From Emiliania huxleyi CCMP1516 (Eukaryota): a DNA stretch of 51,663 bases. Positions 1 through 48,612 of the stretch are shown one piece after another (positions within the stretch are counted from its first letter, which is position 1; each line of letters opens with the position of its first letter). The translations under genes were made by a program, and so were the position numbers. The notes beneath the pieces were generated by a model. That model saw only the letters and a list, made by a program, of their open reading frames with translations, had not been told where the DNA came from and searched no databases. The stretch lies in NCBI RefSeq assembly GCF_000372725.1, contig NW_005201092.1, positions 117,683-169,345 on the forward strand, given 5' to 3'.

Positions 1-114
1 CACCCTACTCCCACCACTCACACCCTACTCCCACGCTGTTCCGACCCCACTCCCACGCTACTCTCACCTCACTCCCACCCCACTCCCACGTGCAACCCAC
101 AGAGCTGGATGGGC

Positions 115-6480: not shown

Positions 6481-8957
6481 TCAAGTGAGTACGTGGTCGC
6501 ATTCTCCGTCCCCGGCCCAGTAGGCGCAGTAGTCTGGGCAGACAGGCGCAGAGGGAGGGGCGTGCGGAGGCGTCAAGCTGCGAGAGGGCGGCACAGCGGG
6601 GTTTAGAAGCGGGGGAGGCGACGCGGGCGGAGAGGCCTCTGGCGTCGGGGAGGACTCAGGGCTTGGCGAGGGCACAAGGCCGTCGTTCGAAGGTGTAGCG
6701 GCAGTCGGGAGCATCGGTGGGTGCAACGGAAGAGGTGATGATGGCGGAGGCGAGGGCGGCGGTGGTGAAGGAGGCGGAGGAGATGGTGGAGGTGGCGTGG
6801 GCTGAAGGAGCGTTGCTAGCGAGGGTAGTGGCGGTGGCGATGGTGGCGGTGGCGATGGCGGTGGTGGCGATGGTGGCGGCGGCGATGGTGGCGGCGGCGA
6901 TGGCGGTGGAGGCGAGGGTGGCAAGGGCGGTGAGGGATATACGTTGGTCGCGTACGGTGGCACGGGCGACGGCGAGGGCGGCGGAGGCGAGGGCGGCGGC
7001 GGTGAGGGAGGTGGTGGTGAGGGAGGCGGTGGGGAGGGAGGCGGTGGCATAGGTGACGTTGGCGGGGGTGAGGTGGGCGAAGGCGAGATTGGTGGAGGCG
7101 TTACGGGTGGCGATGCGGACGGCGGCGAGGGAGCATCGCAGTCACCGCCATCCCAGCCGCACTCGCTTTTGGCGCACCCCTGGTCGCAATCTCCGTCCCC
7201 GGCCCAGTAGACGCAGTAGTCTGGGCAGACAGGCGCAGAGGGAGGGGCGTGCGGAGGCGTCAAGCTGCGAGAGGGCGGCACAGCGGGGTTTAGAAGCGGT
7301 GGTGCCGGCGGTCGCGGCGATACGGGCGGCGAGGACGGTGAGGGTGGTAACGTTGGCAATGGGGGCGATATGTCCTCGCACTTGATGATCGGCTTTTCTT
7401 CGAACAATCCATTTGAACCGATTGCAAAGCTGTACTCCATGTCACAACCGTTGTGGTTGTGGTTGTGGTTGAACCCGCACTCCCAGTCCTTGCCGTCGTG
7501 CTGCATCCACCGCTGGACGCAATCCGGCGCCTCGTAGCAGTCCTCCACAAAGCGTCTGCAGACTGACACAACCAGCGGGGGGGAAGACATGGGACCACCG
7601 GCGGTGTGGAAGGTGGCGACAAAAGGACCGCCTCCGGTGCTGGCGAGGGCAGCAGACCGTCGTCGTTCGGTGGCGAGGTCGACGGGGTTGTCGATGAAGA
7701 AGGTTGTGGTAATGAGGGCGGCGGAGGCGAGGGCGGCGGGGGCGAGGGCGGCGGAGGCGAGGGCGGCGGAGGCGAGGGCGGCGGAGGCGAGGGCGGCGGA
7801 GGCGAGGGCGGCGGAGGCAAGGGTGGCGAAGGCGAGGGTGGCCGAGGTGTGGATGGCGATGGCACAGCGAGCGGAGGCGGCAATGGCGGCGGTAGCAGCA
7901 GTGGCGGTGGTAGTGGCAGCACATCCAAAGACCCAGACGCTTCGCCGGAGCCAGACTCGACGGAGCCAGTCTCGCCGGAGCCGGGCTCCTCGGCGTCCTC
8001 GGGGAACGGCACGGCAGTAGGGGGCGTTGAAGGTGGAGGCGTTGAAGGTGGAGGCGGCGAAGGCGGCTCCTTCAGTGGATACGCCGGACCGGCCGGGGGA
8101 GCTTGGGGTTCGCCTTTGGGTATTCTTGGTGGGGTGGATGGCGGAGGAGGGGACGGGGGAGACGGTGGCAAGACAGGAGAAGGGGTCGTCGATGGGAAGG
8201 GCGGTGGCGCATCCATGCCGGGAGATTGGGGTGGTGGCGCAGCCATGCCGGGAGATTGGGGCGGTGGCGATGGAGTCGGCGATGAGGGAGGTGAGTTGGA
8301 GGGGCCAACAGCAGCTGGCAGCATGGGCGACGTCGAGGGCGGTGGCGGGGAGGAAGGTGGCGGTGAGGGTGGCGGCGGTGAGGGAATGATCAAGCACGGG
8401 CAAGAAGCACAGACGACACGCTGGTCGGCCTCGGAAAGGAACCCGTTCGGCGGCTCCATGTTGAAAACAAGGCGCCCATCAGACCACCCTGGGTCCATGC
8501 AACCCGTGACGGCGGACTTCCAAGATCCATTCACGACCTCTATCGAGCGCAGCAGCTGCTCCGCGGCGTGCGTGCACTCCTCGAGGCTCTGGATTGCGCA
8601 CAACCCCTCGCGCGCGCAGTCGGTGTTGCCTACATCGACCCGCTGGTAGATGATCGGGCAGGCCGGCGACTGCGGCTCCAGGAGTGGCAGCAGCGGTGAG
8701 GGCGACATCGAGGGAATCGGCGGCGAGGGCGACATCGAGGGAATCGGCGGTGAGGGCGGCGGAGGCGAGGGCGGCGGCGGTGAGGGAGGCGGTGGGGAGG
8801 GTGGTGGAGGCGAGGGCGGCGGCGGCGTAGGCAATGCGCCTAGAGCGCCTGGAGGCATGGGTGACGGTGAGGGCGGTGGCTGCGAGGGCGGCGCTGGGGA
8901 GGGCGGCGGAGGCGAGGGCGGCGGTGGTGATGGAGGCGGAGGAGATGGTGGACGCAC
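6481..8957 (-). CDS. Extensin-like (SPPPP)n protein with LNR/Notch-like Cys repeats; frame change near 7600; possibly the 5' part of the 1651-6328 gene
   Basis: ORFs 7290-8957 and 6481-8403 carry SPPPP tracts. [30 protein letters not shown] fits the LNR pattern. A second, truncated copy ends at a possible GT donor (6492). Confidence 0.6.
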
Positions 8958-9783: not shown

Positions 9784-11231
9784 ATGATGGAGCCACACAT
9801 TGTGTGTGTGACTTTGCTCCTCTCCGTCATCAGCGGGTGCGCCGCACACGGCGCCATCGTCAGCCCGCGCAGCCGCAATTCGATTGACTACCTCGCCGGC
9901 GTCCGCGGAATCGACCGCTGCTACAACTTTTCGGGACCGGCGTGCGAAAACGGGCAAGCGGCCCACTACTACTCGCAGGGCTGCACGATCGGCTGCCCGA
10001 CGTGCGACCACGTCAGCGGGCGCCAGCAGGTCGACCTGTGCGGCCTCGGCAAGTCGGCGACGCTGCCCGACTATGCGCGCAGCGTGAACCGGCAGGCGGC
10101 GGCGGGCTCGGACCTCGACATCTACAAGCACAACCCGTGGCGCGCCCCCGGCTCCGCGCCCGTCGCCGACGCGTGCGGGCTCGCTGGCGGCACGCCGTGG
10201 GGCGCCGACGCGCCCGAAGAGGGCAGGTACGTCGCGCCGCGCTTTTTCTGTTTTGTCGTGGGCATGGGGAATTCTTTTTTGTGTCTTCACAGGTACGTCA
10301 ACACGAGCTTTGCGCACCACGGCATGCGGGGCACGGCGCTGCGCGAGCTGGCGACGGGGGTTCGGTGGGTGATCGGCGGGGCGGCGGAGGTGACGTGGCA
10401 GGTTCGCAACAACCACGGAGGAGGGTACAGCTACCGGCTCTGCCCCGCGGGCGAGGCGCTCACCGAGGCCTGCTTCCAGCGCCACCCGCTCCCCTTCGAG
10501 CGCACCAAGCAGGCGTGCTCTTCTTAGACCGCTACGCTGGTCGCAGTTTTGGTAGTGGCAGCGGTAGTAGAAGCAGTAGGAGGAGGAGGGGGAGGAGGAG
10601 GAGGAGTGGAGGAGGTGTTGGTAGGAGTAGGAGTGAGAGGAGGAGGAGGAGAGTAGCAGCAGCTGCTGCTGCTGCTGCACGAGGAGGCGCAGTAGCAGCT
10701 GGCCAGACTGTGCCTTCACATTCTTTGCCCAGCTGGCTAGGCCCTCGTCGTCGCGAGCGGCCAGAAGGTGCCGATCCGAGGCCTCTTTGTCGACGAAGGC
10801 ACCCGAGATTACCCCCGAGATTACCCGAGATTACCCCCGAGATTACCCCCGAGATTACCCGCGGCCTCTTTGTCGACGAAGGCACCTCGCCTCCCGAGAT
10901 ACCCCCGAGATTACTCGAGATTCCCCCCGAGATTACCACAGATTACCACAGATTACCCCCGAGATTACCCCCGAGATTGCCCGAGATGACCCGAGATTGC
11001 CCGAGATTAGGCACCTCGCCTCCCGGCTCGACGTGGGCGCGGCTGCCTCTTCCAGCGGACATCCTCGGTCCGCGCTGCGCGTGCAGGCGTGCACCTCTGC
11101 TAGTCCTCGTGTGCTCACACCACCACACTGTGGGGGGGGAGATGCCCGAGCCATGTCCATGTCCATGTGCATGTGCATGTCCATGTCCATGTCCATGTCC
11201 ATGTCCATGTCCATGTCCATGTCCATGTCCA

Positions 11232-11262
<31 letters not shown>

Positions 11263-13257
11263 GTGCGTGTGCGTGTGCGTGTGTGGGATGGACGGTGCTG
11301 TCATACTGCGCGGGGCTTCCCGCGGGGGACCGAAGGCGTACCGACCCCCCCCCCCCCCTCCCCCCCAACCCCCCACACGTGCAGCCCCGGGTTAGACTAC
11401 AAGCCGCGCGACTTCGCCTGCGGCTGCCTAGCCGGCGAGCAGAGAATCGGCTGCACGTCGGCCGGCAGCTGCTCGCCTCGCGGCCTGCTTTTCTTCTTTC
11501 GTCGTGCGGACCGTGAATTCTTTTTTGAGTCGTTCACAGGTCTGTGAACGACACTGCTCGCTCGGCGCGCGTGCGCGCGTCTCCCCACATCTCCCCACCA
11601 TCTCCCCATATCTCCCACAGGTAACTGCTCCCTCGGCGCGTGCGGAATATCTCCCCACATCTCCCCACCATCTCCCCATATCTCCCACAGGTAACTGCTC
11701 CCTCGGCGCGTGCGCGCCCTGCCCCGGCTCCAAGGGGTCGGACTGCTCGCGCTGCGGCAACGGCCTCGCGCTGCTAGACGCGGAATATCTCCCCGTATCT
11801 CCCCCCATATCTCCCCATATCTCGTGAGCAGGAGCAGCGGGCCCTAGAAGCGGAATATCTCCCCGTATCTCCCCATATCTCCCCATATCTCGTGAGCGGG
11901 AGCAGCGGGCCCTAGAAGCGGAATATCTCCCCGTATCTCCCCATATCTCCCCATATCTCGTGAGCAGGAGCAGCAGGCCCTGGAAGCGGAATATCTCCCC
12001 ATATCTCCCCATATCTCCCCATATCTCGTGAGCAGGAGCAGCGGGCCCTGGAAGCGGAAAGACATAACGATGAGATCGCACGAGATATGGGGAGCCGTAT
12101 TCCGCTGTATTCACTGTACTCGCCTCCCTTGTCTTCACGCGGTGCTCTGAAGACGCTGCACGACACCGCCCTTCCCGCCCCGAGGCTGGTGTCTTCAGCA
12201 CGCAGGCCTTGGACCGGCATTCGAGCCGCCGTTCCACTACAGCGGGCAACCCGCCGGTACCGCCCCCACCAGCGCCGCCCCGACTCCGCACCCACCGCCG
12301 CCGACGCCCCCCCCCCCCTCCTCCCTCCTCCCTCCTCCTCCTCCTCCTCCTCCTCCTCCTCCTCCTCCTCCTCCGCTGCTGCTGCTGCTGCTGCTGCCTC
12401 ACCGCCACCACAGTCTACGATGTCGTGCGAGTGCCGGCGGGGCTCCGGCCCGGACGGGGCGTGCTCTGTGAACGGCGTCTATTCACACCTCCAGCCGTGA
12501 ACAGGCGGGGCTCCGGCCCGGACGGTACGTGCTCTGTGAACGGCGTCTATTCACACCTCCAGCTGTGAACAGGCGGGGCTCCGGCCTGGACGGTACGTGC
12601 TCTGTGAACGGCGTCTATTCACACCTCCAGCTGTGAACAGGCCGGGCTCCGGCCCGGACGGTACGTGCTAGGCTTCCGGTACGATTGCGAGGCGACTGCG
12701 CAGGTCTGGCCCACCCCATCTCTCCCCATCTCTCCTCGTCTCTCCCCATCTCTCCCCATCTCTCCCCGTCTCTCCCCATCTCTCCCCATCTCTCCCCATC
12801 TCTCCCCATCTCTCCCCATCTCTCCCCATCTCTCCCCATCTCTCCCCATCTCCCCCCCCCTCCCCCAACCCCCCTCCTCTTCCTGCGTGCGCACGCTCGG
12901 CCTCGCACTCTCTGCTCGCACTCTCTGCACGGCGTTGGGCTCCTCCCGGCGCTTCGCGCGTGGAGGTGCGAGGGGCAGAGTGGGGGCAGAGTGGCACGGA
13001 GAGCCCCCCATGCGCCCCACACTGGCGCGCGGAGGCGTGTGTCTGCATTACTGTGAACGGCGTCTATTCACACCTCCGGAGGCGTGTGTCTGCATTACTC
13101 GGTAGATGGCACGCCAGTCCTATCGTGGCCCGGGGCGCGTCCGTCCCTAGTGGGCCCTGGCAGGGAGGGGAGGGACGGACGAGCACACTCTCTGCCTTAG
13201 GTCTGGTCGTCGTGCAGCGACATCACGCTGGTGGAGGAGGGCGGCACCACCCGCACC
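9784..13257 (+). CDS. Secreted lytic polysaccharide monooxygenase-like (His-brace) protein, multi-exon
   Basis: Signal peptide followed by His1 (AA|HGAIVSPRSRN), then NPWRAPG, NHGGGYSYRLCP, YVLGFRYDCEATAQ|VWSSCSDI. Introns at 10227-10292, 10513-10740, 10799-11010, 11087-11384, 11465-11690, 12437-12640 and 12704-13200. Exon(s) between ~11760 and 12414 and the stop are unresolved. Confidence 0.8.
11153..11284. repeat. (TGTCCA)n/(TGCGTG)n intronic microsatellite
   Basis: Hexamer arrays read directly from the sequence. Confidence 0.9.
11780..12058. repeat. Tandem repeat of ~68 bp, 4 copies (ATCTCCCC filler + CGTGAGCAGGAGCAGCGGGCCCT)
   Basis: GCGGAATATCTCCCC...CTCGTGAGC units at ~11780, 11850, 11918 and 11986. 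Confidence 0.85.
12437..12640 (+). repeat. GC-AG intron made of three 68-nt units (29-nt exon duplicate + 39-nt insert)
   Basis: 204 nt = 3 x 68. Removing it restores VRVP|AGLRPGRYVLGFRYDCE. Confidence 0.85.
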
Positions 13258-13631
13258 CGAGATGTGGGGAGATACGGGGAGATAGCACCTCGCCCTCGTG
13301 CAGCAGGATGTTTGGGAGATATGGGGAGATATGGGGAGATATGGGGAGATATGGGGAGATAGCACCTCGCCCTCGTGCAGCAGGTGCACTTGTGTGGGGG
13401 GAGAGGTTTGCCTTGCTTTACCACCGCCCTACTGTGCCGTAGGAGGGCGGCGCGCCAGAGGCCTCTTAGCGAGCGAGGAGCTGCGAGGGGGTGGGGTGCG
13501 AGCTTGCTCACCCTCGTGCACCTTCAATGCCGTGCCGGCTCCTGCCCGACCGTGGAGAGGACTGCAGTCCCGGACGAGGTCTTCCGAAGCCAGCCCAAAA
13601 TCTTCTTTTGGGGGGGGCGCGCCGCCAGAGG

Positions 13632-14542: not shown

Positions 14543-14692
14543 CGTGCGGGGAGAGCGGCATTGTGCACGGTGCGGAATGCATTGCCGTTCTTAACGGAGT
14601 CGCTTAGGCGGCTCCGGTGGTGAGCCGGTGTGTGTGCCAGTCCGCGCCAGTCCGCGCCCTTGTCGTGCCAGTGTGCTGTGAGAGAGGCTTGT
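14543..14692 (+). mobile_element. 150-bp 3'-end copy of the CRE-like element
   Basis: Near-identical to 16014-16163 (end of ORF plus 3' UTR). Confidence 0.85.
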
Positions 14693-14719
14693 TCTTGTTC
14701 CTTAAGAAAAATTCTTCTC

Positions 14720-16163
14720 CAGACGCCGTAGCGCGCTGCCATGGTGGCCGCTGCCTTGGGCAGTGGCCACGGTGGCCGACCCAGGGCTCCTACGCGGCTA
14801 CAGCCGCGCGCGACCGCTGCCGCTGGCACCGGTCGCGAGGACTCTGGCTCGGCATGCGCGCCACCGAGGTTCCGCTTCTATCCGCACGGGCTGACGCCGG
14901 CTGCGGAGCTGCTTCCCCTGGCCCAGTTCTCGTCCACCCACGAGTTCCTGCACCAGGCGCAGCGGCGGTACACCTCTGGTGTGCACCACGCTAACTGGCT
15001 CAACCTTGCCAAGGAGCTTACCGACGAGGCGCTTCGCAGTGGCGGCCGCAAGGCGCCCTCCAAAGGCAACAAGGTCGGAAGACGCAAGAACCACAAATGC
15101 TGGCGAGAGGCGATCCGTTTTGTCGCCGTCAGCCAACCAGGGGCCGGCGCCTTCCTCAACGCCATCCCCATGCGTGATGATATGAAGATGGAGTCCTGGG
15201 CGATGCGCGTCACCGTCCAGCGCCGCCTTGGGCTCCCCCTTGATGTCGCCTGCCAGGCGGTGGAGGCAGGCAAGAGGGCACCCAGCGGCCAGCTACACGA
15301 CGTCTTTGGCGACGCCGCGATGGTTAACCCTCGGTCAAAGCATGCTACAAGACACAAATTTCTACTCAAACGTTTGATCAAATGCCTCCGCTCGGCGTGG
15401 GGCATGATCATCGAGATGGAGCCGACTGCACACCTCAGTTACAGTAATCCAAAACAACCTGACGTGGCGGCGGCAAACATCGGCAGGGGGCACAGGCGCC
15501 TTGTTGCCGATTTGAAGCTCACGAGCTCGCTTGCGAGCCAGGGCAAGGACACGGCCGGCGACGGAGAGCTCGGCTGGAAGGGGGCCTATGTGCGTTTTGG
15601 CAACACGGAGACCGGGCTGCTCAAGTTGGTCAAAGGGCGCGGCAAGTGGTCTCCGTCGGGAGCGACGGCAGCGGCGGTGGCGGGGGAGGAGGAGGAGGCC
15701 GAGGAGGAGGGGGAGGAGGGGGAGGAGGAGGATGCCCCCAAGGGAAAGCTCAAGGAGCTGCCTGGCGATTACCCCTTTGCGCGGCAGCAGGATTGCGATC
15801 TACGTTTGTTTGATTTTGAGGCTTTCGGAGGCTTTGGAAAGGAGGTTCGCAGCACCCTGAGGGAGGCGGCGAACCAGCTGAGCAACAAACTTTCGCACGC
15901 TCAGCACCTGGACGAGGTCACATGGACCACCAAGAACTGGCACGGGCTGCAGATGCAGCGCTTGTCTGTCGTCCTCCACACCGCCGTGGCGTGGCAGACG
16001 GTGAACGAGCTAGCGTGCGGGGAGAGCGGCATTGTGCATGGTGCGGAGTGCATTGCCGTTCTTAACGGAGTCGCTTAGGCGGCTCCGGTGGTGAGCCTGT
16101 GTGTGTGCCAGTCCGCGCCAGTCCGCGCCCTTGTCGTGCCAGTGTGCTGTGAGAGAGGCTTGT
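14720..16163 (+). mobile_element. 5'-truncated CRE-clade non-LTR retrotransposon (C-terminal restriction-like endonuclease region, no RT)
   Basis: ORF 14741-16078 contains AFLNAIP...QRRLGLPL...DVFGD...RH...EP...QPD...ADLK...EAFGGFG...QRLSVVL, the post-RT/RLE pattern of CRE-type elements. Confidence 0.75.
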
Positions 16164-17264: not shown

Positions 17265-17419
<155 letters not shown>

Positions 17420-18909
17420 GCTCGCCCACGCCTGATGCAGGCGGCGGAGCAACGCGCGCAGGCGGCGGCGTCGCCCGCCCGCTGGGGGGTGGGTTCGGGT
17501 ACCGTGGGGTGGGGGAGGGTGGGTTCGGGTACCGTGGGGTGGGGGAGGGTGAACGCACCCGCCCGCTGGACTCGCGGAACGTCCACGGCCGTCTCGAGCC
17601 GCCGACCGCTGCTCGGGCAAGCGTAGACGCAGCAGTGGTCGGCGATGCATTCCGTGTCGGTGCTGCATTCCCTCAAGACGTGGCAGCTGCCGCCGAGAGG
17701 GACGGCGGCGGCGGCGCTCCGGCAGCCGGTGCAGTCGCACCCCACGAAGCAGAGCAGCGCGTCGGCGCGACGTGGCGGACGCCTCTCCCGCCCCCGCCCC
17801 GGCCGCCCATGCTGCTGGTGCTCCTCGTGGCCGTTGCTTTGGCCGCCAAGCGCTACGTGCGCCGACACGCCGCCGCGGTAGTAGCCGATGCGGCGTTTGC
17901 CGCCGACGACGGCGGCCGCGCTGGCGGCGCTGGGTGTGACGGGGAGTTCGACTGTGAGTATCGCGGTGTGCGGTGACCAGCAGGTAGAAGCAGCGGTATA
18001 AGTGAGAACGCCGGGCAGGCTCTCGGTCAGCCTATTGCACACTCACGGAGTGCGTCTATGTGACGGTGATAGCAGATTCTCCTATCTACGTTTGCGCGGC
18101 GGTGTCCTCTGTCCTGCACAGTACGGTGTCGGTCCACACTCACATCACTCTACACACTACAGACAACACAGGACGAGGAGACACGGGACGCGATGGCAGG
18201 CGAGACGAGGAGGACGGAGGCGAGGGAAGAGGCAGCGCCACAGTCGACGGAGGCGACAACGATGGAGAAGGGGAGGGAACGACAACGCGCAAAGAGGATG
18301 AGGATATAAACTGGGACGACGCAGCGGAGGGGATAGACGAGGGAATCGAGGGACCGGAGGGCTTTCGCGACAGCGACGATGACGACGAAGGCAGGGGAGG
18401 AGACGGAGGGGCGACACGCAGGAGGAGCGAAATCGCGAACGGCCCGAGCAGAGAGGGCGACGGCGGAGCACGAGGGGGCAACGGAAACGCTACCAATGAC
18501 GCGAATCGAGGCACGGGCGACGGCGGGGACGGGGAGGGCGACAGCGACGTCGAGGTTGACGCAACCGTATCGAGAGCGCCACCCAAAAGGAGGCGGACGG
18601 CCATGGAGGTCACCGAATGGAGGGCGAACGGCACGATACGAAAAGGCACGATACGAAAAGGGCGAGGCGGATGGAGAAAGAAGTGCCGAGGAGGCCATGG
18701 TGGAGGGGAGGGACGGGAGGACGAAAGAAGGGCGAGGAGGACGAGCGGCCCGCACAGACCGCGAGCAGACAGCGCCTGCTGGCCATTTCGAGACATTCGC
18801 AAAGAACGCTAGCTACATGGGAGGGCTTCGTGAAGGATGGATTGAAAAACATTCGAACAAAGAAGAGGCGACGGGTCACGGGAGGAACCGGCAGAGGATG
18901 CAGTGACGT

Positions 18910-21561: not shown

Positions 21562-22970
<1,409 letters not shown>

Positions 22971-23699
22971 ATCGGGATGTGATCTGTGATCTGTGAGGGT
23001 CCGCCCGCAGGCGCATTTTGTGTACCGAGGCGGTGCCCGGTGCCGAACCTGTCGGACCTTGAGACAGCATTGTAGATCCCCCTGGGCGAGGGTGGTGGCG
23101 TCCCCGTCGGGAGCACGGGAGGGGCTGTCTGGCGCGTGGCGGAGGCATGGTGAAAATTCTTTTTCGGCTCGTTATTTTCTTTTTCTCGCAGGAGTCGCCG
23201 TCGATCGTGCAAGACTTCCACCACGAACGATGTCCTCGCGACGGAGGACGCGCACCCACTGCGCGGCGGCGGAAGCCCCGGCGGGGACGACCTCGCCTGC
23301 CCCATTGGCACGATTCTCGACCCCAAGCAAGGGCGCGATGGGTCTCTCCCGCCCGGCGGCTTCATTCACAACCTCTGCCGCGGCGACGCGGGCTGGCGAA
23401 AGGCCCGACGTGGCCGTTTTACGTGCAGTCGGCGGTCCTGTCACTCTCGAAAGAAGAGTTTGGGGATGACCTCTCTGCGGACATCGCCATCGCCATCGAT
23501 CCGACGCTCAAGTTTGCTGAGTGTGTGAGTGAGTATTCTTATGATTGCACAAGCAACACGATGGCACTACTCAGCGTCGAGCCTTGTGATAGGGGCGGTG
23601 CTTGCCGTGTTAAAGTGCGGCTGATGGTGGAGGCGTCAGGAGTTATACTTCGACCCTGTCGACGGGACGCCACCACGCCCCAACAGCTTCAGCAGCAAC

Positions 23700-24170
23700 C
23701 GCCCGACTGGACGGCGTACACTGATGGGTCGGAAGACGGAGGCAGGGCAGGATGGGCGTACGCCGTAGTCATGGGCGGGGACGGCATATGCGACGTGAAT
23801 GCCATGCTCGTGACCGAAAGCTACGGCCCCGTCGTGACTAGCCCCGTACACGCCGCTTTCGTGGGGGCGCGGAAACACACCAATAACACGGCGGAGCTGT
23901 CAGCGCTTGCGGAGCTTTTTCGCTCACTACTCCACACGGCACCACGACCAGCAGGCTCACGAGGGGTGGTCCGAACGGACAGCGAGTACGCGATGGCGTG
24001 TGCGACGGGGAGAATCTCGCCGGGGGAGAACGCACAACTAGCGAGCTATCTTCGAGCAGCGTGGCGGCATTTAGCGTCGAGGCACGAAGTGACATGGAGA
24101 CACGTCAAGGGGCACAGTGGTCATAAGTGGAACGACTACGTCGATAAGCAAGCCGACCTCGGCAGGAGCG
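23700..24170 (+). mobile_element. Ribonuclease HI domain, probably retroelement-derived (within ORF 23147-24421)
   Basis: YTDGS...GA..HTNNTAEL...TDSEYA...HVKGHSGHKWNDYVDKQA supplies the DEDD residues plus His. Intronless; no RT or endonuclease nearby. Confidence 0.75.
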
Positions 24171-25488
24171 GCGCGAGGGATTGCGGCGCGCCGGAGTGGC
24201 AAGACGAATCTGTCCCAACAGACGCAGACGACGGGGAGAGCAGCACCGTGGGCGACGACGTGGTTATTAACGGAGGAGGTACATCAACCATCCCACTCGA
24301 CGACATCGGTGATGGGGCCTCTAGCTACGCCGATGACCCACCCGACTCCCCCGAAAACGAACCGCCGCCTAGCGCCCCGCCCTCGGGCCGCCTAAAGCCC
24401 CAGTCGTGGAGCAGGGGGTGATATGGATTTCATACACGCCGAGCGCGCAGGCGCGACACATCGGAGACAATAAGGGGATCCGGCGTGAAAGAGCTATCGA
24501 CATTGACGTTGACCCAGCCGATTCCACCGACGTCGACGCCATCACCTCCGCGGCTACCGCGCTTTTGCTCGACGACACCGTGGAGAATCGCACCGAGGAC
24601 CTTGCCGAGGCGATAGGCCGAATATCACTTTGGGCCCCGACTCCGCCCCCACCCCTCGGGGTGGGGGCACCCGCCCCTGTCGGGCACCGCTTGCGGCGCC
24701 TGGCAGGGGCACCCCCTGGGTGGGGGCCGGCGATTCCCATGCCGGCTCTCCGCCACAACCCCCGCCGGGAGGGAATCCCTGCTCACAGAAAAGGGCTTCG
24801 AGCCCTGCCTCGCGCACGCCCCTGGCGGGCGCTGCGGACCAGTTCCGCGAGCGCTCGTCAGCGGGTGGTGTGCGGTTCTTGCCGTAGTTCCTCTTCGGTC
24901 GCCTAGCCCCGGCGCCTTCTGTCGGACGCCTGCGTGTCACGAGTGCGAGCCGCTCGCGGTTCGTACGCCCGCTTGCGGGTTCGAGTGGCGGGCCATCCCG
25001 CTTGCGGGATGGCTTAGCGGGTTCGAGCCGTCACACATTGGCTGCCGGGGTGTGCCGAGGGGGGGCTGGGTGGGCGGTAAGCCGTCATTGCCCGACGCTG
25101 CTACCTTGCAGCGCTCTGGGTGGTAGTGGCGGCGCTCCAAGAGTGGTGCTCTTGGGAAGAGGTTCCTCCTTCCCCCCCCCCCCCCCCCGCAAGGCGCGAG
25201 ACACACATTCTTGATACGAAACCACGACCACACCAGTCGACTCGCATCGGTTGCCTCCATTAACGGCGGAGCTATTCTCGCGCCCACACCACACCTGGCT
25301 CCAACGTGGACACGCCCATAGCTGGGACACACACTCACTCAAGTTTGCTGGTACTCTCGGCGCCTTCACACAGCCACAGCGCCCGCCCCGCTCCGAAGCT
25401 CAAGTTTGCGAACGACTGTGCACGCTGTTTCCTGCACGCTGAGACGCTCTGGAGTCCTCTCGGTGCTCTCCATCTGAGAGGACCGTCC

Positions 25489-26044
25489 ATGCCGATCTGG
25501 GACTGGTTCAGGAAGGTCTCGGACGGCAAATCCGAGCGCCAATCCTCCGCCTCCGGCTGCACCGACGCCAGCTCCAGGCACAGCTCCAAGGACCCCTCCG
25601 AAAGGTACTCGAAGGCGAATGCCCATCCGCTGCCGGCCCCGGCGGCGGGCGGGCGGCAGGCGGTCGACGACTGGAGGTCGACGGGCGGCAGCGACGTGAC
25701 GAGCATGAGCAGCAGCTCCGACGCCAGCTCAGGCTTTGGGTCGCCAAAGAGCCACGGAGGCGCGGCGACGGAGCCGATGCGGCAAAGCCCGATCTCGGAG
25801 GGCGGCGGCGCCTCCTCCTCGACAGGCACCTCCCCCGCCGCCTCCGCCGTCTGCTACCGCCAGCCTGCGACGAGCGCCGCCCCTTCCGGCCCATTAGGCG
25901 TCGGCGGAGGCGGCGACGGCGGCTCTGGCACCGCGACGGGCGAGGACGCGACGGGGGCAGAGTACGCGCCAAACTACGGACGGGGAGGGCGCGCGTTCGG
26001 CGAGGCCGGCGCCGTCGGCCCGGCGGGCGGGTGCGCGGGCGAAT

Positions 26045-26075
<31 letters not shown>

Positions 26076-26098
26076 GTTGGCCAGTCAGCAACGGTCAT

Positions 26099-26141
<43 letters not shown>

Positions 26142-28563
26142 GGCTGCGGCAGAGAAGTCGCTCGGCGGCGGCGTGGGGGTGGGGAGGACGCCGGGCGAGG
26201 GGTGGAGCGCGAGGCCGACGGCGGCGGTGCGGGCCGGCGCCGACAGCGGGCGGGACGAGTCTCTGGCCTACCGCGTGGTGAGCGCGGTCGTGGGAGGCGT
26301 CCAGTTCGAGGTCGACGCTCGCTACACGATGCGCAACGTCGTCGGGAAGGGCGCATACGGTATCGTCGCCGCCGCCGACGACGCTCTCGGCGGCGGCGGC
26401 GGCGGCGGCGGCGGAGGAGGAGGAGGAGGAGGAGGAGGAGGAGGAGGAGGCGCTGCCGACGCCGAGCGCTGCAACGCGGGCTGCGTCGCGGTCGAGACGA
26501 TCTTCGAGCCGTTTGCGGACCGGACGGAGAGAAAAAGAAATACGGGCGTCGTTTCTGTCTTCAGGTCAAGAAGATCTTCGACCCGTTCGCGGACCGGACG
26601 GACGCCAAGCGGCTGCTGCGGGAGGTGCGGCTGCTGCGCGTGCTCCGCCACCCCAACGTCCTGCAGCTGCTCGACATGCTGCCCTCGCCGTCCCTCTCCT
26701 GCAGCAACTGGCGCGACGTCTACCTGGTGACGCGGCTGTACGACACCAACCTCCACCGCGTGATCTACAGCGGCCAGCCGCTCTCGGACGAGCACGTGCA
26801 GTACATCCTCTGGCAGGCGCAATCTCCCCCATATCTCCGCCATATCTCCCCATATCTCCGCCATATCTCCGCCATCTCTCACCATGTCTCCCCATATCTC
26901 CCGCCAGGCCTTCCGCGCGCTCCGCTACCTGCATGCCGCCGGCGTGGTGCACCGCGCCCTGACGCCAACCAAGGGAAGTGTCTAGGAAGTGTCTAGGAAG
27001 TGTCTAGGCGTGGTGCACCGCGACATGAAGCCAACCAACATCCTGCTCAACCGCGACTGCGAGCTCGCCCTCGCCGACCTCGGCCTCGCGCGCTACATTG
27101 GCGCCGCCGCTGCCTGCGGCGCCGCCCCGCCCTCCCGCCGCTCTTCGGACGGCAGCATGCAGCCACCGCCGGGCGGCACTGGCGCGGGGCTCGGCTCGCT
27201 GACCAAGTACGTGGTCACGCGCTGGTACCGCGCGCCCGAGCTGCTCGTCCAGAACCAGAGGTACGACGCGGCGGTCGACATGTGGTCGCTATTATTATGA
27301 TTATATATTATTATTATTATTGTTAGGTACGATGCGGCGGTCGACATGTGGTCGCTGGGCTGCATCGCCGCGGAGCTGCTCGGCACACGCGCGCTCTTCC
27401 CAGGCGAGGACTCGCTGCACCGCCTCACCCCCCGAGATTGGCCGAGATGACCCGAGATTGCCCGAGACTGCAGGCAAGGACTCGCTGCACCAGCTCAAGC
27501 TCATCATCGAGCGGCTCGGCGCGCCGTCCGCCGCCGAGCTCGCCCTCATCGAGAATGAGCAGGCCGTGCGCTACGTGGCGTCGCTGCGGCCTCGCGCAAC
27601 CGAGCCAGCGACCGCCGCCACCTACGGGTCCCCCGTCTTACCCAGCTGGCCGCCCGCCCGCAGGTGGAAGAAAGAAAAGAAAGCCCACCGTCTCCCGCTG
27701 GTAGGTCCCTCTTCCCGTTGGCGAACCCGCAGCTCCTCGACCTGATCCACCAGCTGCTCCAGTTCGACCCGCGCCGCCGCCCGACCGCCGCAGAGGCGCC
27801 GCGCCACCCGCACCTCCCCACATCTCGCCACACCTCCCCGCATCTCCCCACATCTCCTCCACATCTCCCCACATCTCCCCACATCTCCCCACACCCCCCC
27901 ACATATCTCCCCCCACCCCCCCACACCCCCCCACACCCCCCCACATCTCCCCACATCTCCTCCACATCTCCTGCCCATCTCCCCACATCCCCTCCACACC
28001 TCCCCACACCTCTCCACACCTCCCCACATCTCCCCACATCTCCCCGCAGGCGCTGCGCCACCCGTACCTCCCCACATCTCCCCACATCTCCTCCACATCT
28101 CCCCACATCTCCCCACATCTCCCCGCAGGCGCTGCGCCACCCGTACCTCCCCACACCTCCCCACATCTCCCCACATCTCCCCACATCTCCCCACATCTCC
28201 CCGCAGGCGCTGCGCCTCCCGTACCTCCCCACATCTCCCCACATCTCCCCACATCTCCCCGCAGGCGCTGCGCCACCCGTACCTCCCCACATCTCCCCAC
28301 ATCTCCCCACATCTCCCCGCAGGCGCTGCGCCACCCGTACCTCGCCGCGTACCGGGATGCGCCCGAGGAGGCGCTCGAAGTGCCCGTCATCGAGATGGAC
28401 TTTGAGGGGCGCGGCGCAAGCAAGGAGGAGCTGCGCGCCCTCGTCTGGCAAGAGATGCTGCGCGTGCGCCAGCCAGGCTTTACGAGGAGGTGTGAACAGC
28501 GTCTCTGCACACCCCACTGCTGTGAATAGGCGCGTGCGGCAGCCAGAGCGATTCGCGAGCTGA
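25489..28563 (+). CDS. Mitogen-activated protein kinase with a long disordered N-terminus
   Basis: [46 protein letters not shown] and ALRHPYL. Introns at 26491-26564, 26817-26907, 26942-27007, 27261-27326, 27404-27473, 27628-27704, 27796-28322 and 28460-28529 all restore the frame. Confidence 0.92.
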
Positions 28564-39456: not shown

Positions 39457-40045
39457 GGAGTTGGTTGAGATTGGCACAGAGAAGTAGAGTGCTGAGCGCT
39501 CAGTGAGGAGACACAGGAGGGGCAGGCGTGTTTGTGTTGGCGTTCGGTCGGTCGGAGGTCGGGGGAGAACGGGAGAGGGGCGGAACTTCACAGAGCTGTT
39601 CACACACCATGTGCGGCGAGTTGCCGACTTTGGACCGAAGTCGCCAGCCAGCACACCTTCCGCACCATCCACAATGCCGAGCAATCAGCAAGTGCGTGGC
39701 GCCGTCGAGGACCTCGTCGAGACGGAGATCCAGCGTTTTGATGTAGATCAATTGCTGCGCAATAAGGAGTGTACGACGCGATCTTGCAAGAGGTAGCTGA
39801 CGACCTCTTCAATCTCCTGCTCGAGCAGGAACGCCCCCGCAAGGCGCGCGATAGCCGATACACACATTTCCCTCTCGGTTTGCTGTGCTCTCTTAGCCGT
39901 GTACACGGACAAGTGCCGCCCTAGCGTCCCCTTGAAGATGGAGTCGACTCGGGCGTCCGGCGTCGCGTCGTGTGCAAGGTTCGCGTTGTAGTGCCGCCGC
40001 CGCACGATGCCCTCCAGCGTCTCCAGTGTGAGTGAGTGAGTATTC

Positions 40046-41100
40046 TTGATACCGAAACACGACGACACACACGATCTGCTGCACGTCGCGCCGATGGCGG
40101 CGGTGACCGACCGCCACTTTCGCATGCTCATCCGCTGCGTCAGCCCGCTGCCGACGCTGTGGAGCGAGATGACCTGGGACACCGTCGCCATCGAGACGGT
40201 GGACGCCGAGGCGCTCATGGGGTTCTCAGCGGCGGAGCGGCCCGTGGTGCTGCAGCTCGGCGGCAGCCAACCCGAGCGGCTCGCGCGCGCGGCGGCGCTG
40301 GCGGTCTCGCGCGGGTATCAGCACATCAACCTCAACTGCGGCTGTCCGGCGGGCACCAACGAGTGGCGAGCGTGCTACGGCGCCAGGCTGATGCTCGACC
40401 CGCGGCTCGTGGCGACGTGCTGTGCGGCCATGCACGCGGCGGCGCGCCGCGAGGCCGAGCAGATGGGCGCGGCGCCGCCGACCGTCCGTCAAGTGCCGGC
40501 TCGGCGTCGACGGCCGCGATTCGTACGACGGTCTCGTGGAGTTTGTGCGTCTCGTCTCGGGCGAGGGCGGTGTGCGCGTCTTCATCGTGCATGCGCGCGT
40601 GGCGCTTCTCACCCTCAACGCGGCCGCCAATCGAACGGTGCCGCCGCTCGACCACGAGCGCGTCCTCCGGCTCGCGGCCGCCTTCCCGCACCTCACCTTC
40701 ATTATCAATGGCGGCGTCACCAGCCTCGAGCAGGCGGCGGCGCTCATCGCGCGTGGCGTGCGCGGCGCGATGATCGGCCGGCAGTCTGTGACGGAGCCGT
40801 ACCTGTTTGCGCGCTCGGCGGTGCTGAGTGGCGGCGGAGGCGCGGCGCGCAGCCGGCGGGAGGCGCTCGACCTCTACCTGACCTACGCATCGGAGGCGCA
40901 GGCCGCGAACTGGGGCGGCGGCCACCCCGTCACACTCGCCCGCGCGCTGCTTGCACCCATCAGTGGTCTCTTTCACGCCACGGAGAGCGGGTCGAGGTGG
41001 CGGCGCGCGGTGCGCGCGGCCATGCAGGAGCGCGGGCGGCTGCGCGACTGCCCGATTGCAGACAGTGGCGGACGCGCTGCTCGACGACCGCCCTGCGGTG
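40046..41100 (+). CDS. dusA: tRNA-dihydrouridine synthase (DusA-like), frameshifted at ~40487
   Basis: VAPMAAVTDRHFR, LQLGGS, INLNCGCP, then in the next frame VKCRLG, FIVHAR, INGGV and GAMIGR. Start codon uncertain. Confidence 0.85.
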
Positions 41101-44100
41101 GCACTGCGGCACTCGCCGCCCGACGCACCGTCGCGCGCCGAGGACGAAAGTGACGACGCGGGTTGCCACCGTGGCGATGCGAAGGCCGATGCAGAGGGCG
41201 CTGCGCCTCCTCCCTCCGCTGTGCTGCGCATCTCGCGACTCCCTGCGGCCTTCTTGCGCGCACGCCCCGGCGCGTCCGGACCGACGCCGCGCGAGGCGCT
41301 GGCAGCGGCGGCGGCGCCGTTTGGTTTCTCTGGAAATCTCGCTGTGCTGCACGCCGCGCGCGTGGCGTTGCTCGAGATGGACTCGCCCGCGGCCGCGCAG
41401 GCCATGCTTGAGCACCACGCTCAACATGGGCTGCAGCTCAGCACGGGCGGTGCTGTGGTCTTTGAGGTTAGCCGCGAGGGTGTCATGCCCGCTCGTCGTG
41501 CCATCGGTGGCGCGGGCGGCGGCGCGGGCGGCGGCGCGGGCGGCGGCGCTGGCAACGGTGCGGGCGATGGCGCGGGAGATGACGCGGGAGACGGCGCGGG
41601 CGACGGCGCTGTCGTGATGCCGCTCCCCGCCCACGCGGTGGCATCCGAGTGCGAGCGATGCCTCGAGTCGATCGTGCGCCAGCTCGAGAAGGCTGAGGTG
41701 GAGGCGAACGCGCTGCGCAACAGAGAGCGCCACGCCGCCCATCTCGCCGTCATGGACGGCGTCTTCGCTGGCCACCACTTCGACCGCTCCGTGTGCTGGC
41801 CGCACTTTCGGCGCGCCGGCGGATGCGATCGGGGCGAGCACTGCGCGCACGCGCACGTGCTGGACGGGCCGCCGCGCTTCTGCTGCGCGCCGCCGCGGCT
41901 GAGGACGTTTGAGGAGGTGGACAGCTACCCTGCGGACTACAGGGAGCTATCCGACGAGAAGTGCGCGGTCAACCAGGCGCTCGGAAGCCTCGCAAAGGAG
42001 CACTGGGCGGAGCGCGCAGCGACGAGGGCGTCGCCGACCGCATTCGAAGCGGTGGAGGAGGGTGAGAGTGGCGGCGGTCAGGTGATGCGCTGCCTCGTGC
42101 TCGACGGCGCGGGAGTGTGCACGACGCGTGCACTAAAGCGAGCATTGGCCGGTACCACCAGTCCTGAGCACCGCCCAGCGGCGCCGCGCGTCGTGGTGCA
42201 CGTGCCCAACATTGCGACGGGCACGTACGCACGGCTGCTCGGGGCGGGCGAGTGCGTGCCATTCCTGGGCTCGCTTCGAGCCTTTCTCGACTCGCGCACC
42301 TGCCCGCGCGGCGAGCACGCGCAGCACTCGCCGCGCGTCGTCGGCGGACGCAGCCAACTCGCCGTTGCCGCCTCCGCCTGCGGCGACGCACCGCGAGCGG
42401 AGCCACAGGCAGACGGGGCGAGCCGCCAGGCCCCGTTCTTCGACGTCGTGTTTGCCGACTACTGCTGCTCCCTGTACGCAAACCGCCACGACCTCGAGCT
42501 CTCTCCCGTGCATGATCTGATCGCCCTCTTCGCCTCGGGCGCGCTCGCCGACGGCGCCGTGCTCGCTGTCACCCTCGCTCGCCCCGACGCGACCAAGCCG
42601 CGCTTCCCGAGCGAGGTGCACGCGGCCGTCACCGCGGCCGTGGGCGATCGGGGCGCACGCTCTCCGGCGGCGGACGAAATCGCGAGCGGCGGCGGCGCGC
42701 GCTGCCCTGATGGCAGCGGCCGGGGCGACAAGCACGCGCTCGACGACGACGCGGAAGTGCTCTGCGCCGCGGTGGATCGGTTGGCGTCGTGGATCGGCAG
42801 GGCGGCGTCTCTGCGGGCGCACTTCGACTTCGGAGCGACATTCGTCCGCATGTGGCGCATTGCGAGCACCGCAGCCCAAACGCCGCCCAAGCGCGCGCCG
42901 ATCGCAATGGAGACGCGCACCAGTCGCGAGCCCAGCGTAAGTACGACCGTCGATGGTCAGGTCGTGTGGCGCCGCCGCTTCAACGCCGTCTTCTACTTCA
43001 TGGACCTGCAGACGGCGCAAACGGTGGTGCGAATCCTCATCTCCTCGGGCCACCTGCCAAAGGACGTGGCGAAGGAGGCGGGCAAAGCGGTGAAATGCGG
43101 CGACCGCATCCGAGTGACTGGCACACAGGACGCCGAGCAGTCGCTCTTGCGCGTGACCGCCATCACGGTGCTCAGCAGCTGGAGCGAGCTCAACCCGAGC
43201 ACGCCATTCCAGCCGCAGCCACGCTCAAAGGCGCGCTCGTGCGACGTCGTCAGCACATCTGAGGCGCCTTTGAGCGTGGCTGCCAGCGAAGCGCCGCCTG
43301 CCGCCCCCTCGCTCGTGCGAACGGTCTGCAAATTCTTCGTCAACACCGGGCGCTGCGCCACGCGCGACTGCAGCTTCGCCCATGACGTGGCTGCTCGCGG
43401 CGAATGGGTCGCGGAGCGTCAGCGCGAGCGCCGCGCGGCCGCGCAGCTTGACAGCGAGCGGCTCGGCGACCCTCACGCAGCCGCAGTCAAGGGCGACAAG
43501 GGGCGGCGTGCGGCCATCTTCGCCGATTGGCTCGTAGCAACCTTTGGCGCGGAGGCACTGAACGAAGGCACTGGTGTGTGCGACGTGGCTGGTGGGAGAG
43601 GTGACCTCAGCTTCGAGCTGGCGTGCGCTCGCGGCGTGCGCTGCGTGCTGGTCGACCCGCGGCCCCAGCAGCCGCGCAAGCAACATTGGAAGCGACTCGC
43701 GCGCAGCGGCGGGCACGTTGCGCTGCCACGGCACGTGCAGTCGTGCGTGGGCCCCGAGTTTGGCGCGGTGAGCGCCGAGGAGCGTGAGGTGCTGCGCGCG
43801 AGCTCCGCCTTTGTGGGCATGCATCCGGACGAAGCGACCGAGTGGATCGTCGACACGGCGCTGCGCGAGCGGAGGCCGTTTGCGGTCGTGCCGTGCTGCG
43901 TCTTTGCGGACCTCTTCGCGCGGCGCACCGCCGACGGGCGCTCGGTGACGACCTACGAGGCGTTCCTTGCGTACCTCCTCGCCAAGGACTTGTCGATCCA
44001 ACGCGACTGGCTCCCCTTTGAGGGGAGAAATTGCGTCCTGTACCGGCACGCCGACGAACCCGCGCCCGCGAAGCCGACGGGCGCTCCGATGTCGCTCGCG

Positions 44101-44190
44101 CAGTGCGAGGCCTGTGAGGACGATTTGGGCGGCGCGTGCGTCCCCGACGTCAGTGCGACCACGGACTGTGATCCCGTCTTTAACGTTTAA
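41057..44190 (+). CDS. Multidomain protein: RRM-like, CCCH finger, putative MTase-like domain, OB-fold-like, CCCH finger, C-terminal SAM methyltransferase
   Basis: CWPHFRRAGGCDRGEHCAHAH; LVLDG...FDVVFADYC; CKFFVNTGRCATRDCSFAH; DVAGGRGDLSFEL...GMHPDEATE...FAVVPCCVF...LPFEGRN. Confidence 0.75.
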
Positions 44191-44203
44191 GGCAACGGGC
44201 CAA

Positions 44204-44804
44204 GGCTAGTGCCATGATCACTCTGACACGCTAATCTTGAAAACGTCTCCAACGGAGCTCCGTGTTGCTTCCAGCGCCCTCCCCCGCGCTCCCTGCGGCC
44301 ATGGCCGATGATCCTAGTATGAGAGGTCATCTGGCTACCGCGAGAGCGACCCAACTCGTCGACATCGTCCGATGATGGTGCCTCAAAGTCAGCCTTCGGA
44401 GGCTATCGTGGGGTCGAGCCGGCAGTAGCCGTGACATGTGGTTCCACCACCCCTCGTAGGCTTTGCCTCTGACCGCCACCGTTCCCAGGCTGCCTAATGG
44501 GATGGAAAGAAAGGCTCGGCGAGCGTATAGAAGCGTTCTCGACCTCGTCGTGGCAACCTGCACGGCAGCGCTGGCAGGCGCGATGAGCGTCGTGCCACCT
44601 GACCCGAGACGGGTCGCAGGCGTCGTACCGAGCGCGTCGAGACCGTGTCATGATGTGATCTGCACGGGTGAGTCACGTCGGCGTCAAAGGAGCGACGTGT
44701 GACTTGTCAGAGCTTGATCTCCGATCTCAGCGGCGTCGAGTCGTCTCCGGCGCGCTACAAAGGTACATCCACAGGACGCGCAGAGGCAGCTGCGACCCCG
44801 CTGA
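44204..44804 (+). mobile_element. MITE copy 1 (left part; right end lost in a gap)
   Basis: High identity over ~600 bp to 47783-48383; begins GGCTAGTGCCA. Confidence 0.8.
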
Positions 44805-47629: not shown

Positions 47630-47782
47630 GTTCGACGGGAATGCTCCAACTCGGGGCCGAGTACTGCGATGGGGAAGATGAGCCATCGCCCTCGCAGCCA
47701 TCGCCCGAAGCGCCGCCGTCGGTGGGCCCGACTGCAGGAGCGGCCGCGTAGCGCACGCACGGCCCTTGGCTGAAGAAGGAAG

Positions 47783-48612
47783 GGCTAGTTCCAATTCACT
47801 CTGACACGCTAATCTTGAAAACGCGTCCAACGGAGCTCCGTGTTGCTCCCAGCGCCCTCCCCCGAGCTTCCTGCGGCCATGGCCGGTGCTACTAGTATGG
47901 GGGGCTACCTGGCTACCGCGAGAGCGACCCAACTCGTCGACATCGTCCGATGATGGTGCCTCAAAGTCAGCCTTCGGAGGCTATCGTGGGGTCGAGCCGG
48001 CAGTAGCCGCGACATGTGGTTCCACCACCCCTCGTAGGCTTTGCCTCTGCTCGCCACCGTTCCCATGCTGCCTAATGGGATGGAAAGGGAGGCTGGGCGA
48101 GCGTATAGAAGCGTGCTCGACCTCGTCGTGGCAACCTGCACGGCAGCGCTGGTAGGCGCGATGAGCGTCGTGCCACTTGACCCAAGACGGGTCGCAGGCG
48201 TCGTACCGAGCGCGTCGAGACCGTGTCCTGATGTGATCTGCACGGGTGAGTCACGTCGGCGTCAAAGGAGCGACGTGCGACCTGTCAGAGCTTGAATCTC
48301 CGATCTCAGCGGCGTCGAGTCATCTCCGGCGCGCGACAAAGGTACATCCCCAGGACGCGCAGAGGCAGCTGCGACCCCGCTGAGTGGACGNNNNNNNNNN
48401 NNNNNNNNNNNNNNNNNNNNNNNNNNNNNNNNNNNNNNNNNNNNNNNNNNNNNNNNNNNNNNNNNNNNNNNNNNNNNNNNNNNNNNNNNNACGCCGTCCA
48501 CTCGGCGGGGTCGCAGCTGCCTCTGGAAGGCACCGAGATGTACCTTTTTCGCGCAATGGTCAAAATCAAGGTTTTGTAACGCGAGCTGTGCCACAGTGAA
48601 ATGGAACTAGCC
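47783..48612. mobile_element. Non-autonomous TIR transposon (PIF/Harbinger-like MITE) with AAG TSD; contains a gap
   Basis: Left end GGCTAGTTCCAATTCACTCTGACAC; reverse complement of right end GGCTAGTTCCATTTCACTGTGGCAC. AAG at 47780-82 and 48613-15. Empty site GAAGG-AAG-GGCACCC near 36766. Confidence 0.88.

What the first reader, a model, noticed from the sequence alone, without database searches (positions are those of the whole stretch)
26491..28529. Recurrent 'exon-duplicate + filler' introns: candidate intron-generating mechanism
Seen: six of the eight MAPK introns begin with a copy of the first ~15-38 nt of the following exon, then a short filler ending in AG (a seventh shares only ~5 nt). 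Examples: 26491 GTCGAGACGATCTTCGAGCCG... vs 26565 GTCAAGAAGATCTTCGACCCG...; 26942 vs 27008 with (GGAAGTGTCTA)3 filler; 27261 vs 27327, a 30-nt copy with (TAT)n filler; 27404 vs 27474 with CCGAGAT filler; also 27796 and 28460. Unit length clusters at 66-77 nt. The same design appears in the LPMO and hydrolase genes. Inference: insertions with long target-site duplications create introns, with the duplicate giving a GT/GC donor and the filler giving the AG, leaving the protein unchanged. This could explain the abundance of GC donors. It differs from described Introners, which are typically TIR elements with short TSDs.
Basis: partly seen in the sequence, partly recalled or inferred. Interest (0 to 1): 0.85.

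Follow-up and report, generated by a model that had tools for sequence, protein, structure and literature searches.

The report
Introns born from duplicated coding DNA
Six of eight introns in an algal kinase gene begin with a 17-38-base copy of the next exon followed by repeat DNA ending in a splice signal, a distantly related alga shows the same design, and such introns were likely born when repair of a staggered DNA break pasted in the tail of another intron, a likely undescribed route to new introns.

Summary
Confirmed, and wider than reported. Six of 8 MAP-kinase introns start with a 17-38 nt copy of their own next exon (permutation 2 of 40320). RNA contigs splice all 6 junctions tested (introns 1-6). 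Independent DNA holds the introns, so this is no assembly artefact. Genomic orthologues from four other haptophyte lineages lack introns at the sites they cover. The same design occurs in a Chrysochromulina contig with perfect 28-, 30- and 14-nt copies, and a close sister lineage lacks the first two, which points to recent gain. Fillers form families anchored at the acceptor AG with variable 5' starts. The donor dinucleotide equals the next exon's first two bases in 15 of 18 introns. Best reading: insertion with a long duplication, the donor taken from the duplicate and the acceptor from a captured intron end. The capture step is inferred: DNA repair or reverse transcription. Ten paper searches found no description in haptophytes. 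The scan earlier noted one similar 36-nt intron in another protist (unchecked). No genome-wide count was possible, and introns 7-8 were not RNA-tested.

The parts
25490..28562 (+). MAP-kinase gene, 9 coding exons (host gene)
   Evidence: spliced translation; haptophyte orthologues with Pkinase
26491..26564 (+). intron 1: 38-nt copy of next exon + 36-nt filler, GT-AG
   Evidence: RNA skip of 74 nt in X14; DNA X1, L027
26817..26907 (+). intron 2: ATCTCCCC-type satellite, no exon copy, GC-AG; site also interrupted in other lineages
   Evidence: RNA skip of 91 nt in X14 and X11; read-through proteins P0001-P0003, P0036, P0042, P0008
26942..27007 (+). intron 3: 31-nt copy + (GGAAGTGTCTA)3 filler, GC-AG
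   Evidence: RNA skip of 66 nt in X14 and X11
27261..27326 (+). intron 4: 30-nt copy + (TAT)n filler, GT-AG
   Evidence: RNA skip of 66 nt in X14
27404..27473 (+). intron 5: 18-nt copy (to about 25 with mismatches) + CCCGAGATT-type filler, GC-AG
   Evidence: RNA skip of 70 nt in X14 and X11
27628..27704 (+). intron 6: only 5 nt shared with next exon, GT-AG
   Evidence: RNA skip of 77 nt in X14 and X11
27796..28322 (+). intron 7: five stacked copy+filler+AG units (starts 27796, 28050, 28129, 28207, 28265), GC-AG
   Evidence: restores the conserved AAE|AL.H motif; not RNA-tested
28460..28529 (+). intron 8: 17-nt copy + 53-nt filler of the same family as the LPMO 12437 filler, GC-AG
   Evidence: not RNA-tested
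11465..11690 (+). LPMO-like gene intron with three layered units: old diverged copy with a T-rich filler, then two younger copies with an ATCTCCCC filler
   Evidence: whole skip of 226 nt in X14 and X13; inner skip 11540-11690 in one X14 contig; alignments
12437..12640 (+). LPMO-like gene intron: 29-nt copy, three 68-nt units, GC-AG
   Evidence: gene model matches transcript-derived protein P0176 at 377 of 381 residues
10799..11010 (+). LPMO-like gene intron with an internal 15-nt copy and a second duplication (10776-10803) whose filler does not end in AG
13237..13442 (+). LPMO-like gene last intron: GA donor with 9-nt copy of next exon
   Evidence: boundary from protein P0176
51290..51371 (-). 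82-nt candidate intron with a ~44-nt exon copy + GAGCCGAGATT filler in an unidentified gene
   Evidence: not RNA-tested

Best explanation
These are spliced introns whose first 17-38 bases copy the next exon, and they were likely gained one by one when a staggered DNA break in coding sequence was repaired with duplication of the overhang and capture of the satellite-bearing 3' end of another intron. The event turns exon1-H-rest into exon1-H-filler-AG-H-rest. The spliceosome takes the GT, GC or GA at the start of the first H as donor and the captured AG as acceptor, so the mRNA is unchanged. Events that cannot be spliced would be purged from exons but survive inside introns. Later slippage or unequal crossover between the two H copies would stack units, or delete the intron precisely, and point mutation erodes H. 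Shown: the anatomy, splicing, absence in orthologues, filler families and donor identity. Inferred: direction of gain, the break-repair step and the DNA template.
For: Anatomy and statistics. Splicing in 2 RNA studies per gene. Copy-bearing sites are intron-free in genomic L003 (sites 1-5), L011 and L021-L024 (sites 1-7) and L014 (sites 1-8). Perfect 28-, 30- and 14-nt copies occur in Chrysochromulina L021. Sister cluster P0233 (91% identical over the middle exon) has uninterrupted 770-786 aa ORFs on contigs up to 21 kb that lack both the 28- and 30-nt-copy introns, while gene calls on the intron-bearing type read through. Fillers share 3' ends at AG and differ at the 5' start. Duplications with the same filler families but no terminal AG lie inside introns (10776, 13030; L030), with 1-4 nt microhomology at junctions and a template about 0.5 kb away for 13030. 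Copies drift in other alleles.
Against: No intron presence/absence was seen among window-species DNA (X1, X10, L027, X2, X4), so gain is inferred from other species. The H-filler-H layout also allows precise loss in the intron-free relatives. A random-filler model expects 12-33% of spliceable events to have the donor at the duplicate's edge, but 10 of 11 do (p 1e-4 to 1e-7). Plain DNA capture therefore needs strong selection for a filler next to the AG; an RNA template would give this for free. The Chrysochromulina junctions have no RNA test. The 69-nt one is in frame without a stop, and the C. parva model P0248 uses another donor. The sample is about 23 introns in 5 genes.
Confidence: 0.55

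Rival explanations
1. Same outcome, RNA template. A retrotransposon reverse transcriptase primes at a nick and copies an excised intron from its 3' AG end, stops early, and second-strand cleavage 14-45 nt away makes the duplication. Intron ends would thus propagate themselves.
For: Fillers are 3'-coterminal at AG with variable 5' truncation. Duplication length varies. There is microhomology at the 5' junction. The 10 of 11 edge bias needs no extra selection under this model. An RNase H frame lies in the window (weak).
Against: Same-family fillers that stop short of the AG (13030, 10776, L030). Fillers in the reverse orientation occur inside an intron (13259-13360). Chrysochromulina fillers extend past a branch-point-like CTCAC (motif recalled), so a lariat tail alone is not the template. 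No autonomous element was linked.
Confidence: 0.25
2. Remodelling of older introns. The 3' splice site plus the exon head is duplicated by slippage on the local satellite, and the original 5' unit is later removed, so positions are old and only the sequence is renewed.
For: Stacked units are real (intron 7; LPMO 11465, 12437). An inner unit start works as a donor in one RNA contig. In-register microhomology with the local satellite.
Against: The sites are empty in four other lineages and in the close Chrysochromulina sister. Layered units carry different filler families, which local slippage cannot supply.
Confidence: 0.12
3. Non-autonomous DNA transposons (Introners) with unusually long target-site duplications.
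For: Repeated filler families; donor co-opted from the duplication, as in Symbiodinium and Polarella (PMC9860276; 10.1101/2020.10.14.339549).
Against: Duplication length varies from 14 to 44 nt instead of a fixed 3-9. Family members differ in 5' extent, and inserts are 35-95 nt satellites. No terminal inverted repeats were evident by eye (not scanned).
Confidence: 0.05

Closest known systems
[quoted passage not shown]
   Same: New introns with a direct repeat of the adjacent exon end, read as staggered-break repair; later internal events lengthen them.
   Different: Repeats there are 4-12 bp (33 cases among 90 new introns) and insert sources are mostly unknown. Here copies are 14-44 nt, nearly always start at the donor, and inserts belong to repeated intron-end families.
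Introners that recruit the 5' splice site from the TSD (Symbiodinium 4 nt; Polarella classes 4 and 8 nt; PMC9860276, 10.1101/2020.10.14.339549)
   Same: Identical splice logic: donor from the duplicate, acceptor carried by the insert, protein unchanged, non-GT donors drawn from coding sequence.
   Different: Fixed 3-9 nt TSD, defined ends and often TIRs there. The Chrysochromulina Introner shown in PMC9860276 has a 4-bp TSD and co-opts the 3' site, the reverse of this design.
Intron gain by tandem genomic duplication of an AGGT-bearing segment (PMC3443670; PMC4974935 seen in a listing only)
   Same: Duplicated exon sequence forms part of the intron, with precise gain.
   Different: There the whole intron is exon copy and both sites come from the duplicate. 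Here about half is foreign filler, and in 6 of 10 edge-type cases the upstream exon does not end in AG. One L021 intron (17349-17424) fits the AG|GT-inside type plus filler.

Membership tests
Spliceosomal intron | removed from mRNA at GY..AG ends | tested here: met
   6 of 6 MAPK junctions laid and LPMO 11465-11690; MAPK introns 7-8 and Chrysochromulina introns not RNA-tested
Introner (DNA-transposon type) | short TSD of fixed length (3-9 nt) per family | tested here: not met
   14-44 nt; 28 vs 30 nt within one Chrysochromulina family, 17 vs 29 nt within one window family
Introner (DNA-transposon type) | end-to-end similar copies at many loci | tested here: inconclusive
   3' ends shared, 5' ends differ in 2 small families; no genome for a census
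Introner (DNA-transposon type) | terminal inverted repeats (not universal) | not tested
   none evident by eye; no scan run
Introner (DNA-transposon type) | splice site co-opted from the duplication | tested here: met
   donor dinucleotide equals exon start in 15 of 18 introns
DSB-repair intron gain (Daphnia type) | direct repeat of adjacent exon flanking the insert | tested here: met
   longer than the 4-12 bp reported
DSB-repair intron gain (Daphnia type) | intron-free ancestral allele or orthologue | tested here: met
   between species; no within-species polymorphism seen
DSB-repair intron gain (Daphnia type) | dependence on an end-joining pathway | not testable with these tools
   needs experiment
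Tandem genomic duplication gain | intron wholly made of duplicated exon, both sites from AG|GY in it | tested here: not met
   35-95 nt of foreign filler in single-unit cases
Target-primed retro-insertion | variable TSD, 3'-anchored 5'-truncated insert | tested here: inconclusive
   met, but same-family fillers also end short of the AG

The most novel reading that the evidence does not exclude
Haptophyte introns breed. The 3' ends of existing introns, as excised RNA, are reverse-transcribed into nicked coding DNA with 14-45 nt duplications, so each insert arrives with its own acceptor and borrows its donor from the host exon. This transposon-free cycle would have made a large share of haptophyte introns, spread their 10-11 nt satellites, and supplied the GC-AG majority of Emiliania.
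Probability: 0.25. Interest if true: 0.93.

Novelty: new variant of a known kind. Interest (0 to 1): 0.8.

Why it matters
The source of most new spliceosomal introns is an open question (PMC3443670). Here the birth scar is long enough to read on single introns, in two distant haptophyte lineages, and in the small sample it marks a large share of introns (6 of 8 in the kinase gene; 4 of 5 in 21 kb of Chrysochromulina, counting one upstream-type copy). Divergence between copy and exon gives each intron a clock, so gain, stacking and loss rates become measurable from public genomes. It offers a concrete source for the unexplained 56-65% GC donors of Emiliania huxleyi (PMC4028052): donors are sampled from coding sequence, where GC outnumbers GT 331 to 70 in this gene. 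It also warns that read mappers and gene callers will misplace such junctions.

Tried and rejected
No whole genome was held and locus handles were not searchable, so there is no genome-wide census. Satellite-pattern scans found nothing in genome contigs or in most viral scans. One search gave L030. One search gave L031, a chance match in a phage gene, rejected. The plasmid search gave no match. Assembly artefact was rejected. Chance was rejected. The idea that the template is only the lariat tail below the branch point was dropped, because Chrysochromulina fillers extend upstream of a CTCAC motif (branch-point role recalled). The 68-nt repeat at 11774-12059 was first read as exon copies; it is wholly intronic. 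The relaxed scan (threshold 9) gives many chance hits and was used only as leads. Summed contig depth over fillers is not a copy number and only suggests repeated families. The careful tree did not finish; the quick tree (46 rows, with L026, L027, L029 and 36 of 55 proteins left out) is used only for the nearest clade. The L021 16468 row was mis-set by one base and dropped before the 10-of-11 count. The hydrolase label for 21564-22253 got no Pfam hit.

Full report
Context. The window has no genome on file. The kinase's named relatives are haptophytes (Prymnesium, Chrysochromulina). The very high share of GC donors fits Emiliania (Gephyrocapsa) huxleyi. That species name is my inference; no call gave it.

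Observation. Removing eight GY-AG introns between 26491 and 28529 gives an open MAP-kinase frame. Six of the eight begin with a copy of their own next exon: 34/38, 28/31, 29/30, 17/18, 19/21 and 16/17 identical bases. Intron 6 shares 5 nt and intron 2 shares 2 nt. For each of the six, 0 of 249 other exonic G[TC] sites match as well. The pairing permutation gives 2 of 40320, and 5 shuffled windows give no hit. Upstream similarity (exon end versus intron end) is only 0-3 nt.

Splicing and reality of the DNA. On 26451-27812, RNA run X14 skips 74, 91, 66, 66, 70 and 77 nt at introns 1-6, and metatranscriptome X11 shows 4 of these 6 in the listed rows. X1 (kind not on record) and X10 (DNA?) show none of these joints and hold contigs running through intron 1 (X1) and introns 4-6 (both) (14 joint rows not shown). 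Locus L027 is a second allele with introns 1-6 and the start of 7; its intron 2 is 70 nt. The alleles differ by single bases inside the copies, as expected for neutral drift. Intron 7 restores a conserved motif; intron 8 rests on sequence alone.

Are the positions new? Of 29 related loci, L003, L011, L014 and L021-L024 carry several long ORFs and are read as genomic. They are uninterrupted at window sites 1-5 (L003), 1-7 (L011, L021-L024) and 1-8 (L014). L003 and P0001/P0003 form the nearest clade in a quick tree (SH-aLRT 100). P0003 lacks introns at sites 1, 3, 4 and 5 at protein level. It reads through one at site 2, the copy-less intron, as do P0001, P0002, P0036, P0042 and P0008. So the one site shared with other lineages is the one without a copy. 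Parallel gain at that site is possible: P0008 repeats the upstream seven residues there. L003 has its own intron 5 nt from site 5, and its head reads V-S-L-H where the next exon is expected to read D-S-L-H. Its downstream exon is off the contig, so this is a lead only.

A second lineage. The strict scan of 130 kb of loci found the design in L021/L023, a Chrysochromulina parva/tobinii-type contig by cluster names. The cases are perfect copies of 28 nt (2393-2474), 30 nt (2675-2743) and 14 nt (8209-8317, also in L022). Removing them restores reading frames, including an HRHHH motif. I saw two more introns in the 21 kb by eye: one with a 7-nt head copy and one with a 13-nt copy on the upstream side. 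A sister cluster (P0233, 91% identical over the middle exon) has uninterrupted 770-786 aa ORFs on contigs up to 21 kb that lack both the 28- and 30-nt-copy introns. Gene calls on the intron-bearing type read through the 69-nt intron, which shows that these calls ignore introns. Perfect copies plus an intron-free sister point to recent gain. Against: there is no RNA for these junctions, the 69-nt one is in frame without a stop, the C. parva model P0248 picks another donor, and precise loss in the sister is not excluded.

More anatomy. The neighbouring LPMO-like gene has 10 introns; the model matches transcript-derived P0176 at 377 of 381 residues. One intron has a 29-nt head copy, two have long internal copies, and four have a 5-9 nt matching head. 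Over both genes the donor dinucleotide equals the next exon's first two bases in 15 of 18 introns (11 GC, 6 GT and 1 GA donors). Intron 11465-11690 holds three layered units with two different filler families. It is skipped whole in X14 and X13, and one X14 contig skips only 11540-11690, so an inner copy can act as a donor. Fillers form families that end together at the AG and start at different points: kinase intron 8 with LPMO 12437, and two L021 fillers with L030. Several copy-filler junctions show 1-4 nt in-register microhomology (read). Duplications whose filler stops short of an AG occur inside introns (10776, 13030, first L030 unit).

Mechanism. The simplest event is exon1-H-rest to exon1-H-filler-AG-H-rest. 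I favour repair of a staggered break with templated capture of another intron's end, filtered by splicing (0.55), because non-AG versions with junction microhomology exist where selection is absent. The main tension is the edge bias. A random-filler model expects 12-33% of spliceable events to have the donor at the edge of the duplicate, yet 10 of 11 clear cases do. That model ignores selection on branch point and pyrimidine tract, and it ignores non-independence. An RNA template ending at AG would explain the bias directly (0.25). Remodelling of old introns (0.12) explains stacking but not the empty orthologous sites. GC donors follow from sampling coding sequence (GC 331, GT 70 in the kinase exons) only where the spliceosome tolerates GC; the five Chrysochromulina introns are all GT.

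Literature. Ten searches returned no description of this design in haptophytes; the library lacks most subscription papers. Seen: PMC4028052 (passages, section 15, supplement list, supplement 6, a term search of 7 supplements; 56-65% GC donors, ascribed to GC content; figures not seen). PMC9860276 (passages; TSD 3-9 bp). 10.1101/2020.10.14.339549 (passages; TSD 3-8 nt). PMC4202315 (passages; 4-12 bp repeats). PMC3443670, PMC11782384, PMC4580454 and PMC10290126 (passages). PMC4974935 (listing only). That the E. huxleyi genome paper reported 10-11 bp repeats in introns is recalled, not seen. An earlier scan note (e1-7378193) describes one 36-nt intron of similar make in another protist; unchecked.

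Verdict. This is a real, spliced, recurrent design in two distant haptophyte lineages. It works like TSD-co-opting Introners and Daphnia-type break-repair gain but fails the fixed short-TSD test. New variant of a known kind; interest 0.8. It is limited by a sample of about 23 introns and the lack of a genome-wide count.

Noticed in passing
window 11540-11690: One RNA contig removes only the inner two units of a stacked intron at an AG|GT junction, leaving the first unit: possible recursive splicing of a 226-nt intron.
   Followed up: partly
window 13237-13442: Likely GA-AG intron whose GA donor is the copied first codon of the next exon.
   Followed up: partly
window 23063-24421: Frame with an RNase H domain (PF00075, E 1.5e-13), probably a retroelement fragment.
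   Followed up: partly
window 14636-16160: Long open frame flanked by near-identical direct repeats of about 130 nt (about 14550-14690 and 16020-16160); looks like a small mobile element.
   Followed up: no
window 11774-12059: Four 68-nt tandem units wholly inside an LPMO intron; RNA loose ends suggest the unit's satellite-flanking motif recurs at other loci.
   Followed up: partly
window 50760-50850 and 51050-51100: Two further duplications (29 nt and 18 nt) with satellite or short filler in the minus-strand gene at the window end.
   Followed up: no
L030 4370-4554: A phage-like contig ends in haptophyte-type DNA with two stacked copy-plus-filler units; possible chimera.
   Followed up: partly
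L003 5193-5391: Intron head in the nearest relative reads like a copy of the expected next exon, 5 nt from window site 5.
   Followed up: partly
window 39700-44200: About 4 kb of apparently intron-free coding sequence beside genes with 8-10 introns: intron density is very uneven.
   Followed up: no
window 44200-44800 and 47800-48390: Two near-identical copies of about 600 nt flank a lower-GC region with an apparently intron-free gene (about 46200-47630).
   Followed up: no
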